From Candidatus Parcubacteria bacterium (GTDB lineage Bacteria > Patescibacteriota > Minisyncoccia > Phycocordibacterales > CAIJYI01): 64,000 nt of DNA. The stretch is from positions 44,874 through 108,873 of the forward strand of contig JAPLYL010000002.1 of the NCBI GenBank assembly GCA_026395595.1, written 5' to 3'. The position numbers and the translations under genes were made by a program. A model generated the notes under the pieces. It saw only the letters and a program-made list of their open reading frames with translations. It made no database searches and was not told the origin of the DNA. Numbering within the stretch: position 1 is the stretch's first letter; each line of letters opens with the position of its first letter. Positions 58,590 to 61,380 of the stretch are shown here, one piece after another.

Positions 58590-59585
58590 TTAAGGAACAG
58601 TGATATCCCAATGATTGCTCTCAAGGGCATAAATCGCACCGCTTGTTTTTGATTGGTATTGTATTGCCCCGTCGCCTCTTTTTCCTATATTGGTATATTG
58701 TTCTGGATGGTCAATGATGTGATTATCAAGCGCACCTCCTGTTCCTAAATCCACTTTTTTCCCATTGCAGTGGTTTGGGTTACTAGGGTTACTGCAATTG
58801 TGAACCCCTGTACTTTCCGATCCTCCGGTAACGACAATATCGCAATTGCATTCTTGTTGAACTCTTTTCACTTCATTGAGTGTTTCAGGTCTTACTCCCG
58901 CAAGTTGTGTTCGGTCAGACCCGGCATTTATCGTAATATGTCCTGTGTCAGTGAGTATTTTTCTGTTATCCCCTTCGTTACCTGATTCCAATGGAATAGT
59001 GGTCGCTTCTGTTGATAGGTCGCAAGAGCTAAATGGAATAAATCCGGGCTGGGCATCGCATTCCTCTTTCGTTGTGTAGCACATTCGCGTGTTTGTCAGT
59101 CCTACATTTTTACAATAATGAGGGGTATTTGATGTGTTTCCTTCATTTTGCGGGGTGTAATTATCAAATATCGTTCTGTCTAAATTGAGTCCTATTCGCA
59201 AAAGTCCCGGGTTTAGTGTGTTGAGAAGCACTGAAGAGATGAGAATGATAAAAATCCCTGTTATGGCACTGCTTATTCTGTTTTTTCCCTCACCTACGGA
59301 AAACGGTGTTTGCGCGACTATGTATTGAATACCGCCGATAACGATCATAAGAACCGCAAAAACGATAGCGAGTCCTATTGTTGCGGTAAAAATACCTTTC
59401 ATATAAATCGCTAATGTCGGAGCCGAATCTGTTGGGACGGTAGGGATTGACGCGAGTGGTATATATCCTTCATTTTGCGCCAACACCTTTTCAGAAAAGA
59501 AAAAAAAGCAAGAAAAAATGAAAGCAGTAAAGATTTTTGTTTTTGAATGCATAAGTTTAAAGGTTTTTCGGTAATGGCGTTCCAT
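58590..59585 (-). CDS. Membrane protein with a TrbC/VirB2-pilin-like two-helix module and a C-terminal peptidase M15 (VanY-like) domain
   Basis: The N-terminal module IPLASIPTV...YMKGIFTATIGLAIVFAVLMIVIGGIQYIVAQTPF...NPGLLRIGLN is shared with the ORF at 60127-61380. The C-terminus carries M15-like motifs H-C-N-G-K-K-V-D-L and ESNHWD. The start may be an internal Met (ATG at 59552). Confidence 0.45.
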   Translation of the reverse strand: MERHYRKTFKLMHSKTKIFTAFIFSCFFFFSEKVLAQNEGYIPLASIPTVPTDSAPTLAIYMKGIFTATIGLAIVFAVLMIVIGGIQYIVAQTPFSVGEGKNRISSAITGIFIILISSVLLNTLNPGLLRIGLNLDRTIFDNYTPQNEGNTSNTPHYCKNVGLTNTRMCYTTKEECDAQPGFIPFSSCDLSTEATTIPLESGNEGDNRKILTDTGHITINAGSDRTQLAGVRPETLNEVKRVQQECNCDIVVTGGSESTGVHNCSNPSNPNHCNGKKVDLGTGGALDNHIIDHPEQYTNIGKRGDGAIQYQSKTSGAIYALESNHWDITVP

Positions 59586-60114
59586 TTTGACAAAAACTCA
59601 ATCCGTAATCCCTGCCTGCCGCTTTTTCATTTACATTAGAGGGGATGGTTGTAGCGACTTTTAATTGACAGGCTTTTTCTTCGGTAATTCCGAGGTCTTG
59701 CAGTAATTCTTTTTCTGCATCCGTCCGCGCTATTTTTAAATCTCCCCCGGTAAGACTGATAAGAAAACTTTGGTCAATCGTAAAATAAAGAACGGAATAA
59801 TACGGATGTTCTTTGAGTGATGCGCCCCACTCTTCATAAATCGTTGTTTTTTTGCTTTTGAAAAAATCATTTACGATCATATTTCCGCCATCTTTTGCGG
59901 TAATGCTTATTTCCCCTTCTTTTGGTTTTTGAACCGGAATTTCCGGAGTTTTTATGGTATTTGCTTGTTTTGGTTCTGTATTGGTAATTTCTTTGGCTGG
60001 AATAATAACCGTCGCAGGAGTTTGCTCAGAATACAGCTTCCAGAAAAAGTAACCGCCGATAAGAAAAAGAAGGAAAACAATGTTGCCGAGGATAATAAAG
60101 ATTTTTTTGTTCAT
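59557..60114 (-). CDS. Hypothetical membrane-anchored protein
   Basis: 185 aa with an N-terminal transmembrane helix. Family not recognised. Confidence 0.4.
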   Translation of the reverse strand: MNKKIFIILGNIVFLLFLIGGYFFWKLYSEQTPATVIIPAKEITNTEPKQANTIKTPEIPVQKPKEGEISITAKDGGNMIVNDFFKSKKTTIYEEWGASLKEHPYYSVLYFTIDQSFLISLTGGDLKIARTDAEKELLQDLGITEEKACQLKVATTIPSNVNEKAAGRDYGLSFCQNGTPLPKNL

Positions 60115-60126
60115 ATTCGTTATTTT

Positions 60127-61380
60127 TTAAAGTCCGCATAAAGCTCCGGTACTCCATTGATGCCAATCGCTTCCTCCATGAGATAATTGTTTGGCATATT
60201 CAATGTTTACGCGGGCGGTTTTTGCTGCGGCCACACATTTTCCATACATTTCTGAATCTTTAACCGTACAAGCGTAATTTTTTGCGGTAAAAGGGCTGCC
60301 ACTCTGATTATATGCACAAGGAAGTCCGCTGAGGTTGTGCTGGGTCAGGTTGATCTGGAATAATCCAAAAGAAAAAGATACCCCGGTTCTGTTTTCACAC
60401 CTGTCAGAATTGCTTCCAATTAAGGGATTACCGCCACTCTCCGCGTTGCAGATAATAGAAGCTTTTTCCGCATTGTTTCCAAAAAACGAGGAAAGATTTT
60501 CAACAGAACAAAGACCTGAGGTTAATGGCTGACATTTTCCATTCCCTCCCCCACAGCCTTTTGGTATAGAACTTCCGCCTGTAGAAGAACAGGTGTGAGA
60601 TACACACGGTTTTACTTCCGAACCGGAACTGCATTCCGGGTAATTATAGGTATTTTGTTTCGCGGCGCATTCTCCTGCCGGATCTTGAGAGGTATTGCTC
60701 GGGTAATCGCAATATTCACTGCAGTCCTGTTGGACTATACACACCGTATTTTGTTTTTTAGGAACAGACGCCGTACTTTCTGATATGGTTGCCGGAGTAT
60801 AAGGGTCAAAAGTAATTGATTTGATATTTAAACCGATATTCAAGAGGCCTGGATTGATGACCTGAAGAATGAGATAAGAAAGAAGAGCGAGAATCAAACC
60901 GAGTATGGCTCCGCCGATTCGTTTTTTTGCATCACCCATCGCAAAAGGGGTTTGTGCGGTAATATATTGAATCCCCCCGATGACGATCATGAGTACAGCA
61001 AAAACAATGGAGAGCCCAATAACAGCGACAATAAGCCCCTTCATATAGACAGGAAGAGAAGTATTTGTTTTGACTCCAACGGTGGGGATATCAGCAAGAA
61101 GCGTATATCCTTTCGGTCCCGTTTGAGTGTTATCTTGGGAATTACTCGTTACTTCTGGAACTGTTCTGCAGGTATGACTGTTTCTCGTTAAGAGATACGT
61201 ATCTAATTTTGTGTTGCATAACTCCGAAGTGCTGAAACATTCTCCTTTTGTATTGCTCACCACATCAAAATCGCAGTATTGGTCGGCTGCCAAGACAAAT
61301 GACGCGCTCAAAAAAAACGTTTGAAATAAGAAGACAAACGAGAAGATTTTACAAGCGATAGCTGAGTATTTTTTATACAT
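60127..61380 (-). CDS. Membrane protein with Cys-rich N-terminal region, a TrbC/VirB2-pilin-like module and a C-terminal SLT-like lytic transglycosylase domain
   Basis: Shares the module IPTV...YMKGLIVAVIGLSIVFAVLMIVIGGIQYITAQTPF...NPGLLNIGLN with the ORF at 58590-59585. The C-terminus carries SLT-like motifs NAESGGNP and GVSFSFGLFQIN. Confidence 0.45.
   Translation of the reverse strand: MYKKYSAIACKIFSFVFLFQTFFLSASFVLAADQYCDFDVVSNTKGECFSTSELCNTKLDTYLLTRNSHTCRTVPEVTSNSQDNTQTGPKGYTLLADIPTVGVKTNTSLPVYMKGLIVAVIGLSIVFAVLMIVIGGIQYITAQTPFAMGDAKKRIGGAILGLILALLSYLILQVINPGLLNIGLNIKSITFDPYTPATISESTASVPKKQNTVCIVQQDCSEYCDYPSNTSQDPAGECAAKQNTYNYPECSSGSEVKPCVSHTCSSTGGSSIPKGCGGGNGKCQPLTSGLCSVENLSSFFGNNAEKASIICNAESGGNPLIGSNSDRCENRTGVSFSFGLFQINLTQHNLSGLPCAYNQSGSPFTAKNYACTVKDSEMYGKCVAAAKTARVNIEYAKQLSHGGSDWHQWSTGALCGL

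What the first reader, a model, noticed from the sequence alone, without database searches (positions are those of the whole stretch)
58590..61380. Paralogous membrane proteins: a shared TrbC/VirB2-pilin-like two-helix module fused to different peptidoglycan hydrolase domains
The ORFs at 58590-59585 and 60127-61380 share about 90 aa: IP(T/L)...YMKG...IGL(A/S)IVFAVLMIVIGGIQYI(V/T)AQTPF..G..K.RI..AI.G..I.L.S..L....NPGLL.IGLN. This is a signal peptide plus two hydrophobic helices, reminiscent of conjugative VirB2/TrbC pilins. One paralogue then carries an M15 (VanY-like) peptidase signature (H..G.KVDL and ESNHWD). The other carries a Cys-rich region and an SLT-like lytic transglycosylase (AESGGNP, GVSFSFGLFQIN). 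They sit in a run of five minus-strand secreted or membrane genes (58590-63919). Together with the separate SLT gene at 17274 and pilB at 44365, this may reflect a cell-wall-breaching or pilus-passage apparatus.
Basis: partly seen in the sequence, partly recalled or inferred. Interest (0 to 1): 0.65.

Follow-up and report, generated by a model that had tools for sequence, protein, structure and literature searches.

The report
Pilin-anchored cell-wall hydrolases of a T4SS
Two neighbouring genes of an ultrasmall (Patescibacteria/CPR) bacterium each fuse a VirB2-like type IV secretion "pilin" membrane hairpin to a different cell-wall-cutting enzyme, so in this lineage the secretion machine's pilin and its wall-breaching enzymes, which are separate proteins in the one studied relative, are single proteins.

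Summary
ORF A (58590-59585) and ORF B (60127-61380) share a 106-107 aa module (58% identity, E=1e-33). It consists of a signal peptide plus two hydrophobic helices and matches Pfam T4SS_pilin (PF18895).

- **B's C-terminus:** an SLT_3 lysozyme-like domain, scoring above Pfam's threshold, with invariant E-S and GLFQIN motifs.
- **A's C-terminus:** it hits no Pfam or PDB profile. It belongs to a large uncurated family (2,328 cluster representatives; 94 of 125 sampled are fused to T4SS_pilin). Its invariant H-x2-G-x3-D and E-x2-H-W-D motifs, weak Hedgehog/M15A fold matches and a fusion to PG_binding_1 in a Chloroflexi protein point to a LAS/M15-like zinc peptidase. This is likely but not proven.

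In three close relatives the same five genes follow PrgI(VirB3)-TraC-like-VirB4 next to yidC/rnpA/dnaA. The window therefore holds the distal part of a Patescibacteria type IV secretion operon, and VirB4 is expected just beyond base 64000. pilB and the SLT gene at 17 kb are unrelated to it.

Southlakia's essential T4SS cluster has the same parts as separate genes: pilins, a lysozyme-like protein and a DD-peptidase-fold protein. The papers I searched do not describe the fusions. I rate this a new variant of a known kind, of moderate interest.

The parts
58590..59585 (-). ORF A (331 aa; the database entry starts at M12, nt 59552, giving 320 aa). It is a signal peptide, a VirB2-like pilin module, a Cys-rich linker and a LAS-like C-terminal domain.
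   Evidence: It is 100% identical to P0001, named 'MAG: pilin [Candidatus Parcubacteria bacterium]'. T4SS_pilin scores 29.3 bits against a cut-off of 26.6.
59151..59468 (-). Shared pilin module of A (aa 40-145): two hydrophobic helices with a short K/R loop, ending in NPGLLRIGLN.
   Evidence: BLASTP 58% identity to B, E=1e-33. Hydropathy. AF2 helices 58-90 and 94-124. Custom HMM 110 bits.
58998..59150 (-). Linker of A (aa 146-196) containing a 4-Cys mini-module (C158, C169, C176, C188).
   Evidence: Weak similarity to B residues 34-58 (E=0.24). Sub-threshold DUF7057 in orthologue P0003.
58593..58997 (-). C-terminal domain of A (aa 197-331): an uncurated family and a putative LAS/M15-like zinc peptidase. 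Invariant residues are H272, G275, K277, D279, E322, H325, W326 and D327. Near-invariant residues are C246, C248, T253 and H262.
   Evidence: Alignments. AF2 pLDDT 86.5, pTM 0.84. 2,328 representative clusters. No Pfam or PDB hit. BFVD top hit is Hedgehog-like, E=5e-3, TM 0.5.
60127..61380 (-). ORF B (417 aa): signal peptide, N-terminal 4-Cys insert, VirB2-like pilin module, Cys-rich linker and SLT_3 lysozyme-like domain.
   Evidence: Best relative is P0020 at 92% identity.
60793..61110 (-). Shared pilin module of B (aa 91-196).
   Evidence: (115 bits). T4SS_pilin scores 25.0 bits, just under the cut-off.
60130..60510 (-). SLT_3 (PF18896) lytic-transglycosylase/lysozyme-like domain of B (about aa 291-417). 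Invariant E314-S315, S323, D326, S337, GLFQIN 339-344, N392 and W409, plus conserved Cys pairs.
   Evidence: Pfam 35.6 bits against a cut-off of 27. Alignment of 14 relatives.
59557..60114 (-). 185-aa membrane-anchored protein between B and A. It is conserved in the same position in relatives; its function is unknown.
   Evidence: No Pfam or PDB hit. One N-terminal TM segment.
61547..62860 (-). 437-aa membrane-anchored protein, a conserved operon member of unknown function.
   Evidence: No Pfam or PDB hit. N-terminal TM segment.
62867..63871 (-). 334-aa secreted protein with weak Ig-like/BiPBP_C similarity. It is the first gene after virB4 in relatives. The ORF is listed up to 63919 from a GTG, but the real start is probably the ATG at 63871.
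   Evidence: L008 calls a 334-aa product. Alignment of the upstream region.
63872..63920 (-). Upstream block identical in the window, L004 and L008, with TATAAT (63878-63883) ending 6 nt before the ATG. It is a candidate promoter or 5' region for the five-gene unit.
   Evidence: In the relatives a terminator-like hairpin separates it from the virB4 stop.
58550..58586 (.). Hairpin with a 17-bp stem, flanked by A and T runs, between the stop of A and the stop of convergent yidC. It is the probable bidirectional terminator that ends the operon.

Best explanation
A and B are the two cell-wall hydrolases of a Patescibacteria (class Paceibacteria-type) type IV secretion system. Each is built onto a VirB2-like pilin module instead of being a separate VirB1-like protein.

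Proposed mechanism:
1. **Export and insertion.** Both proteins are exported by Sec and their signal peptide is removed. The two-helix hairpin inserts with its short basic loop in the cytoplasm and both ends outside. The disulphide-rich linker and the enzyme domain therefore sit on the outer face of the membrane, in the peptidoglycan layer.
2. **Enzymes.** B cuts glycan strands, as a lytic transglycosylase or lysozyme-like enzyme with E314 as the catalytic acid. A most likely cuts peptide stems or cross-links, as a LAS/M15-like zinc peptidase. Its proposed zinc ligands are H272, D279 and H325, and its proposed catalytic base is E322.
3. **Localisation.** The conserved pilin hairpin brings both enzymes to the VirB3/VirB4-based machine. 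It could do this by docking there as VirB2 does or by co-assembling into a short VirB2-type polymer. Wall opening is thereby confined to the site where the apparatus crosses the wall.

**Shown here:** the shared module, its pilin-family match, the predicted topology, the SLT_3 match, the conserved candidate catalytic residues, and conserved synteny with VirB4 in relatives.

**Inferred:** the enzymatic activities, the peptidase identity of A, whether the wall attacked is the cell's own or the host's, and whether the module polymerises.
For: **Pilin module**
- T4SS_pilin scores above the cut-off in A. It matches all 14 A-type orthologues and 94 of 125 distant carriers of A's C-domain.
- TrbC/VirB2 (PF04956) matches 17 of those 125 at E<0.01.
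- The hairpin is the most conserved part of both proteins: 58% identity between the paralogues against 43 identities in 172 aligned positions for the rest.

**T4SS context**
- In relatives at 66-92% identity the gene order is PrgI, TraC-like, VirB4, 334/350 aa, 435/437 aa, B, 185 aa, A, then yidC-yidD-rnpA-dnaA.
- This is the oriC-proximal T4SS location reported for Patescibacteria (PMC12102498).
- In a more distant lineage a pilin+VanY (PF02557) fusion lies downstream of VirB4 in the equivalent oriC-proximal operon, one gene before its end.
- No stand-alone pilin module was found within 10 kb in any of these loci or anywhere in the window.

**Enzymes**
- B: SLT_3 above threshold, with invariant E-S and GLFQIN.
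- A: invariant HxxGxxxD and ExxHWD and a confident model.
- A: the best viral fold hits are a Hedgehog-named Microviridae protein (E=5e-3, TM 0.53/0.50) and 'Peptidase M15A'.
- A: hhalign puts the motifs in register with VanY.
- A: the same domain follows two PG_binding_1 repeats in a Chloroflexi protein.
- The module is fused in other proteins to SLT, VanY and NlpC/P60. One protein (P0092) carries the module, the A-type domain and an SLT domain.

**Parallel in the studied system**
- In Southlakia epibionticum, VirB4 is followed by an essential protein with a Hedgehog/DD-peptidase domain and an essential lysozyme-like protein. The pilins there are six separate small genes (Wang et al. 2023, Table S2).

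**The cell has its own wall**
- PBP1 and a Mur ligase are encoded in the window.
Against: - VirB4 itself is not inside the window. The link is by synteny in relatives only.
- B's pilin match is 1.6 bits below Pfam's cut-off.
- A's C-domain fails every sequence-profile test for M15. Foldseek against the PDB gave nothing. The hhalign probabilities are low, at 16% and 3.6%.
- In one genome (L006) an A-type fusion and an SLT fusion sit beside an M23 peptidase with no VirB4 within 10 kb. The pair can therefore occur away from the T4SS genes.
- No known VirB2 pilin carries a 15-25 kDa enzyme domain, so behaviour as a true pilin is unproven.
Confidence: 0.68

Rival explanations
1. Armed pilus. The VirB2-like modules of A and B polymerise into the extracellular T4SS filament or stalk, with N- and C-termini on the outside as in known conjugative pili. 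The filament is then coated with lysozyme-like and peptidase domains. These digest the wall of the host cell the epibiont sits on, not its own wall, opening a path for uptake or delivery.
For: - The fusions are the only VirB2-type genes found in these operons.
- The hairpin is conserved far beyond what a simple anchor needs.
- Both termini are predicted to be outside the membrane.
- Patescibacteria T4SS and pilin arrays are essential for epibiotic growth, and a pilus-like conduit has been proposed (PMC10633639, PMC12857230).
- The fused enzyme varies (SLT, SLT_3, VanY, NlpC/P60, A-type) as expected for adaptation to different target walls.
Against: - There is no evidence of polymerisation.
- A bulky domain on every subunit has no precedent in VirB2 pili and may not pack.
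- The host of this organism is unknown and might lack peptidoglycan.
- Stand-alone pilins could be encoded elsewhere in the genome or be too divergent for my HMM.
Confidence: 0.2
2. Pro-protein. The fusion is a precursor. The C-terminal enzyme is cleaved off during pilin maturation, as TrbC loses C-terminal residues during its processing. This would release a soluble hydrolase at the assembly site and leave an ordinary small pilin.
For: - The module ends in a conserved NP(G/E)LL-x-IGLN motif followed by a variable, low-confidence linker (pLDDT below 50 at residues 128-153).
- RP4 TrbC is known to be trimmed at its C-terminus during maturation (my own knowledge, not tested here).
Against: - No TraF-like maturation peptidase was seen in the operon.
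- No cleavage-site evidence exists.
- The linkers are Cys-rich and look structured rather than disposable.
Confidence: 0.07
3. Housekeeping autolysins. A and B are ordinary growth or division wall hydrolases. The two-helix module is merely a membrane anchor that happens to resemble pilins, with no functional tie to the T4SS.
For: - In L006 the pair lies next to an M23 peptidase and far from VirB4.
- PMC12102498 reports that the pilin gene is near virB4 in only 1,135 of 1,948 assemblies.
Against: - The position downstream of VirB4 is conserved in four independent contigs, including a distant lineage where the enzyme is VanY instead.
- The module matches pilin families specifically.
- Unfused lysozyme-like and DD-peptidase-fold genes occupy the equivalent position downstream of virB4 in Southlakia's essential T4SS cluster.
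Confidence: 0.05

Closest known systems
Patescibacteria T4SS of Southlakia epibionticum ML1 (SEML1_0006-0019; Wang et al. 2023, PMC10633639) and the survey by Quinonero-Coronel et al. 2025 (PMC12102498)
   Same: - The core order is the same: PrgI, a TraC-like protein, VirB4, then wall-hydrolase genes, all next to the replication origin.
- The three functional parts are the same: PF18895 pilins, a lysozyme-like protein and a Hedgehog/DD-peptidase-fold protein.
   Different: - In Southlakia the pilins are six small stand-alone genes, and the hydrolases are large separate proteins of 643 and 1,113 aa.
- Here both hydrolases are fused to pilin modules, and no stand-alone pilin is seen in the operon.
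- The survey paper counts such proteins as VirB2 homologues. It states that most VirB2-bearing genomes lack VirB1, and it does not mention fusions.
VirB1-like hydrolases of Gram-positive conjugation systems (PrgK of pCF10, TraG of pIP501), as cited in PMC12102498
   Same: They are membrane-anchored and encoded in a T4SS operon, and they combine a glycan-cleaving activity with a peptide-cleaving activity to open a thick wall.
   Different: - Those are single proteins with a plain N-terminal anchor carrying SLT plus CHAP (or LytM) domains.
- Here the two activities are on two proteins.
- The anchor is a VirB2-like hairpin.
- The peptidase is LAS-like rather than CHAP.
VirB2/TrbC conjugative pilins (PF04956) and T4SS_pilin (PF18895)
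   Same: Signal peptide, two hydrophobic helices joined by a short basic loop, and an HMM match.
   Different: Classical pilins are about 70-130 aa with no extra domain. A and B carry 185-220 further residues that include an enzyme domain.
LAS / MEROPS M15 metallopeptidases (VanY PF02557, LdcB, phage M15A/M15C endolysins)
   Same: - The H-x2-G-x3-D and E-x2-H motifs have the same spacing.
- The order of secondary-structure elements is the same: helix, a strand ending in GG, a loop with His, a strand with Asp, and a last strand with His.
- In other lineages genuine VanY domains are fused to the same pilin module, and in one locus such a fusion lies in the equivalent operon.
   Different: - There is no significant sequence-profile match and only marginal fold matches.
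- The domain has extra invariant features (a CxC pair, TGGTE, HWD).
- It forms its own large family that is absent from Pfam.

Membership tests
T4SS_pilin (PF18895) / VirB2-TrbC pilins | Profile match at or above the curated threshold | tested here: met
   A scores 29.3 bits against 26.6. B scores 25.0 bits, just below, but its module is 58% identical to A's. All 14 orthologues match.
T4SS_pilin (PF18895) / VirB2-TrbC pilins | Cleavable signal peptide followed by two hydrophobic helices joined by a short basic loop | tested here: met
   Hydropathy and Cys distribution. AF2 helices 58-90 and 94-124. An invariant Ala lies at the predicted cleavage site.
T4SS_pilin (PF18895) / VirB2-TrbC pilins | Encoded with VirB4/VirB3 genes | tested here: inconclusive
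   Not visible in the window, which ends in the intergenic region upstream of the first of the five genes. It is met in relatives at 66-92% identity with identical gene order.
T4SS_pilin (PF18895) / VirB2-TrbC pilins | Small single-domain protein (mature size about 70-130 aa) | tested here: not met
   A is 320-331 aa and B is 417 aa, each with a C-terminal enzyme domain.
T4SS_pilin (PF18895) / VirB2-TrbC pilins | Polymerises into a pilus | not testable with these tools
   This needs microscopy or biochemistry.
SLT_3 (PF18896) / lysozyme-like lytic transglycosylases | Profile match above the gathering score | tested here: met
   B residues 300-411 score 35.6 bits against 27. Precomputed PF18896 on many relatives.
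SLT_3 (PF18896) / lysozyme-like lytic transglycosylases | Catalytic Glu in an E-S motif and a G-L-x-Q motif | tested here: met
   E314-S315 and G339-L-F-Q-I-N344 are invariant in 14 sequences down to 31% identity.
SLT_3 (PF18896) / lysozyme-like lytic transglycosylases | Muralytic activity | not testable with these tools
   Needs an enzyme assay.
Peptidase M15 / LAS zinc peptidases | Match to a Peptidase_M15-type profile (PF01427, PF02557, PF05951, PF08291, PF13539) | tested here: not met
   No hit at E<=1 in A or its 13 orthologues, and none at E<=0.01 in 125 family members. The PDB profile search gave 0 hits at E<=10.
Peptidase M15 / LAS zinc peptidases | Zinc-ligand motif H-x6-D plus a distal His, with an acidic catalytic residue three positions before it | tested here: met
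   H272-x6-D279 and E322-x2-H325 are invariant in 40 diverse sequences and in 125 representatives. Some members have an insertion between the Glu and the His.
Peptidase M15 / LAS zinc peptidases | Hedgehog/DD-peptidase fold | tested here: inconclusive
Peptidase M15 / LAS zinc peptidases | Profile-profile homology to VanY | tested here: inconclusive
   hhalign gave P=0.0016, probability 16%, and P=0.012, probability 3.6%. Both comparisons align the motifs in register.
VirB1-type T4SS wall hydrolases (functional class) | A peptidoglycan-hydrolase domain encoded within a T4SS gene cluster | tested here: inconclusive
   The domain is met for B and likely for A. Cluster membership is shown only in syntenic relatives.

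The most novel reading that the evidence does not exclude
In Paceibacteria-type Patescibacteria the T4SS filament or stalk is built from enzyme-bearing VirB2-like subunits. This would be a pilus whose surface carries lysozyme-like and zinc-peptidase domains. It would digest the host cell's wall at the contact site and create the conduit through which these auxotrophic epibionts feed. Under this reading, the variety of enzymes fused to one conserved hairpin (SLT_3, SLT, VanY, NlpC/P60 and the new A-type domain) reflects adaptation to different host walls.
Probability: 0.2. Interest if true: 0.85.

Novelty: new variant of a known kind. Interest (0 to 1): 0.55.

Why it matters
The role of the Patescibacteria T4SS is an open question. 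It is essential for epibiotic growth in the one species tested. It lacks a relaxase and a recognisable coupling protein. Unusually for a monoderm, it comes with VirB2-like pilins (PMC10633639, PMC11665869, PMC12857230).

- **A functional link.** A natural fusion of the pilin hairpin to two different wall hydrolases argues that pilin and wall breaching act at the same place in this machine.
- **A possible missing VirB1.** It offers an explanation for why surveys find VirB2 homologues but few VirB1 homologues: part of the VirB1 function may be hidden inside proteins annotated as 'pilin'.
- **A new domain family.** It defines a large uncurated family (at least 2,328 clusters at 50% identity) that is a candidate new branch of LAS peptidases.
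- **Testable reagents.** It yields soluble enzyme domains and point mutants for asking whose wall the system attacks.

Tried and rejected
- **Foldseek of the full-length A model against the PDB.** It returned only irrelevant helical-hairpin hits with E>1.
- **Foldseek of the C-domain model against the PDB.** The best hit was TP0453 at E=0.055, which is not meaningful.
- **PDB sequence or profile searches.** Searches with A1, A4, A6 and the 185-aa and 437-aa proteins found nothing useful.
- **Exact-sequence look-up of P0001.** It gave only a 1.3-kb contig, so the organism's own virB4 could not be read.
- **The genome-contig scan.** It returned the Nomurabacteria relative and a Chloroflexi protein, not the source genome.
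- **Link to pilB and the 17-kb SLT gene.** Rejected. pilB is a T2SSE-family type IV pilus ATPase flanked by unrelated genes, and the SLT_2 gene is 40 kb away.
- **Recent gene conversion between A and B.** Rejected on third-codon-position divergence and orthologue comparisons.
- **Secreted T4SS effector (Xanthomonas X-Tfe-like).** Rejected. Both proteins have Sec signal peptides and membrane hairpins, so they are not cytoplasmic substrates.
- **Other T4SS parts in the window.** None was found. There is no VirB4, VirD4, VirB6 or relaxase among the ORFs scanned.

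
Full report
**1. What is in the sequence**

The right end of the window reads like a Patescibacteria/CPR chromosome at its replication origin. The relevant genes are:
- dnaN (53321-54493, minus strand)
- dnaA (54783-56129, minus strand)
- rnpA, yidD and yidC (56937-58544, plus strand)
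- five minus-strand genes from 58590 to 63919

ORF A (58590-59585) is 100% identical to a database protein that NCBI names 'MAG: pilin [Candidatus Parcubacteria bacterium]'. The closest contigs belong to a Candidatus Nomurabacteria MAG.

**2.

- BLASTP of A against B gives a single ungapped segment of 107 residues at 58% identity, E=1e-33. The rest of the proteins do not align.
- The duplication is old. Only 40 of 106 third-codon positions match. Each module is closer to its orthologue in relative L004 (77% and 89%) than to its paralogue (58-62%).
- The core stretch IVFAVLMIVIGGIQYI(V/T)AQTPF is identical in both paralogues of the window genome and differs only at the V/T position in L004, which points to strong selection on the hairpin itself.
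- Hydropathy gives a signal-like segment plus two strong hydrophobic segments in each protein, with a short K/R-containing loop between them. All later cysteines (8 in A, 20 in B) lie outside these segments. AlphaFold predicts two long helices in A, 58-90 and 94-124.
- A custom HMM of the module finds only A and B in the six-frame translation of the window.

**3. What the module is**

- Pfam T4SS_pilin (PF18895) matches A at 29.3 bits against a cut-off of 26.6. It matches B at 25.0 bits, just below the cut-off. TrbC/VirB2 (PF04956) is sub-threshold.
- All 14 A-type orthologues match T4SS_pilin.
- So do 94 of 125 distant proteins that carry A's C-terminal domain, and 17 of those also match TrbC at E<0.01.
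- The predicted topology puts the N- and C-termini outside and the basic loop inside. From my own knowledge, not tested here, this is the topology of VirB2-type pilins before assembly.

**4. What the C-terminal domains are**

*B.* Residues 300-411 match SLT_3 (PF18896, 'Lysozyme like domain') at 35.6 bits against a cut-off of 27. In 14 relatives down to 31% identity, E314-S315, S323, D326 and G-L-F-Q-I-N (339-344) are invariant. The E-S and G-L-x-Q pattern is what I recall as the signature of SLT-type lytic transglycosylases; I did not test that recollection here.

*A.* This domain is less certain.
- No Pfam family matches residues 197-331 in A, in 13 orthologues or in 125 distant members.
- PDB sequence and profile searches find nothing.
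- A profile search of 1.84 billion cluster representatives finds 2,328 proteins at E<=1e-3 and 1,231 at E<=1e-10. The domain is almost always C-terminal in proteins of 250-320 aa. It is therefore a large uncurated family.
- Invariant residues in 40 diverse members are H272, G275, K277, D279, E322, H325, W326 and D327. C246, C248, T253 and H262 are nearly invariant.
- The pattern H-x2-G-x3-D ... E-x2-H has the spacing seen in the VanY domains of P0069 and P0071 (SNHESGKALDL ... ENWHW).
- hhalign places these motifs in register, but weakly: P=0.0016 with probability 16%, and P=0.012 with probability 3.6%.
- The domain model is confident (pLDDT 86.5, pTM 0.84). Foldseek finds nothing in the PDB.
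- Among viral models the top hit is a Microviridae protein named after Sonic hedgehog (E=5e-3, TM 0.53/0.50, 121 columns). 'Peptidase M15A, C-terminal' follows at E=0.075, and a Microvirus 'Peptidase' at E=0.23.
- Independent support for a peptidoglycan substrate comes from a Chloroflexi MAG. It encodes the same domain after a signal peptide and two PG_binding_1 repeats (E=2.6e-33).

I conclude that A's domain is probably a divergent LAS/M15-like zinc peptidase (about 0.65). It is not demonstrably a member of any curated M15 family.

**5. The genomic setting gives the function**

Close relatives share one gene order: L008 (B 92%, A 84% identical), L002/L003 (two ENA assemblies) and L004 (a GTDB genome contig), all carrying the P0003 orthologue (B 81%, A 66%).
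- The order is PrgI (VirB3-like, 151 aa), TraC-like (220 aa), VirB4 (609 aa; AAA_10/P-loop_TraG/DUF87), 334/350 aa, 435/437 aa, B, 185 aa, A.
- Convergent yidC-yidD-rnpA and then dnaA-dnaN follow.
- The window stops in the intergenic region upstream of the first of the five genes. VirB4 is therefore expected just beyond base 64000 but cannot be seen.
- This matches the published description of Patescibacteria T4SS loci: related to the monoderm MPF-FATA conjugation machinery, with VirB2-like pilins, usually without a relaxase, and often beside dnaA, dnaN and rnpA (PMC12102498).
- In a more distant lineage (L007) the same operon carries a pilin+VanY fusion downstream of VirB4, one gene before the operon's end next to jag-yidC-yidD-rnpA-rpmH-dnaA.
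- Across the loci fetched, the only pilin-module genes within 10 kb are hydrolase fusions.

**6. Comparison with the one studied system**

In Southlakia epibionticum ML1 the essential T4SS cluster, read in gene order away from prgI, is:
- PrgI (SEML1_0010)
- SEML1_0009
- VirB4 (SEML1_0008)
- SEML1_0007 (1,113 aa, with a Hedgehog/DD-peptidase domain at residues 951-1105)
- SEML1_0006 (two lysozyme-like domains plus a cysteine proteinase domain)
- six separate small PF18895 pilins (SEML1_0014-0019)

This comes from Wang et al. 2023, Tables S1 and S2. The window operon therefore has the same three functional parts: pilin, lysozyme-like enzyme and DD-peptidase-fold enzyme. Here the pilin is fused to each enzyme.

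The same hairpin is fused elsewhere to SLT (PF01464), VanY, NlpC/P60 plus Amidase_5, and combinations of these. Examples are P0092 (pilin, A-type domain and SLT) and P0016 (pilin, A-type domain and a VanY-like domain).

The papers I could search describe the pilins and note a shortage of VirB1 homologues. They do not mention these fusions.

**7. Most likely mechanism**

1. Sec exports both proteins, and the hairpin inserts with both ends outside the membrane.
2. The disulphide-rich linker holds the enzyme domain in the wall layer.
3. B cleaves glycan strands and A cleaves peptide stems or cross-links.
4. The VirB2-like hairpin targets both to the VirB3/VirB4 machine, so wall opening is local.

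The organism makes its own wall: PBP1 and a Mur ligase are in the window.

Shown here are the module, its family match, the topology prediction, the SLT_3 match, the conserved candidate catalytic residues and the synteny. Inferred are the activities, A's peptidase identity, which wall is the target and whether the hairpin polymerises.

**8. Rival readings**

- *Armed pilus (0.2).* The hairpins polymerise and display the enzymes against the host wall. This is attractive because no other VirB2-type gene is seen in these operons, but there is no direct evidence.
- *Pro-protein cleaved at the conserved NPxLL-IGLN boundary (0.07).*
- *Housekeeping autolysins with a pilin-like anchor (0.05).* Locus L006 supports this reading: an M23 peptidase, an A-type fusion and an SLT fusion lie together with no VirB4 within 10 kb. 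The conserved position downstream of VirB4 elsewhere argues against it.

**9. Verdict**

- The system belongs to the known Patescibacteria T4SS. The pilin-hydrolase fusions and the uncurated A-type domain family make it a new variant of a known kind, of moderate interest.

Noticed in passing
window 27438-41787: A 2,862-aa protein (33199-41787, minus strand) carries SpvB, TcdB_toxin_midN, FG-GAP, RHS-repeat, Bact_surface_Ig-like and Gly_rich_2 domains. It is followed by two RHS-tip fragments (31007-32770 and 28931-30670) and a recombinase fragment (27438-28565). GC content rises to 0.47-0.49 at 34-38 kb against about 0.40 elsewhere. It looks like a polymorphic-toxin locus with orphan cassettes.
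   Followed up: no
window 63869-63920: The listed GTG start of the 350-aa ORF is probably spurious, because relatives call the ATG at 63871 (334 aa). The 49 bases upstream are identical in the window, L004 and L008, while sequence further upstream diverges. This block contains TATAAT ending 6 nt before the ATG. In the relatives a terminator-like hairpin follows the virB4 stop. The five distal genes may therefore be a separate, possibly leaderless, transcription unit.
   Followed up: partly
window 58550-58586: A perfect 17-bp-stem hairpin flanked by A and T runs lies between the convergent stops of ORF A and yidC. It is a likely bidirectional terminator.
   Followed up: no
window 59022-59120 (A aa 156-188) and 61168-61281 (B aa 34-71): A small 4-Cys motif (YC...T..C(Y/F)(T/S)..E.C) occurs after the pilin module in A but before it in B. 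The BLASTP similarity is only E=0.24. Orthologue P0003 shows a sub-threshold DUF7057 match in this region. The N-terminal insert in B is present only in its closest relatives.
   Followed up: partly
L005 9128-10327 (Chloroflexi MAG WYDT01000001.1): The A-type domain occurs outside Patescibacteria. This 399-aa protein has a signal peptide, two PG_binding_1 repeats and the domain, with no pilin module.
   Followed up: yes
L006 8659-12486: A three-gene wall-hydrolase cluster lies away from any VirB4. It holds a coiled-coil M23 peptidase, P0016 (pilin, A-type domain and a VanY-like domain) and a pilin+SLT protein.
   Followed up: partly
window 44365-46578: The pilB-like T2SSE ATPase (558 aa) has no pilC or pilM neighbours in the window. 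It is flanked by a DUF11 surface protein (42623-44293, minus strand) and a 174-aa membrane protein with no family match. It belongs to the type IV pilus or competence machinery, not to the T4SS.
   Followed up: partly
window 48004-48519: An ORF6N/Rha-like, phage-type regulatory-domain protein sits between ruvB and yebC-ruvC. The same gene is present at the same place in the relative L002.
   Followed up: no
P0114 (2,312 aa; A-type domain at 1774-1891): One very large protein carries the A-type domain internally and has no Pfam match at all. This recalls Southlakia SEML1_0007 (1,113 aa with a C-terminal DD-peptidase-fold domain).
   Followed up: no
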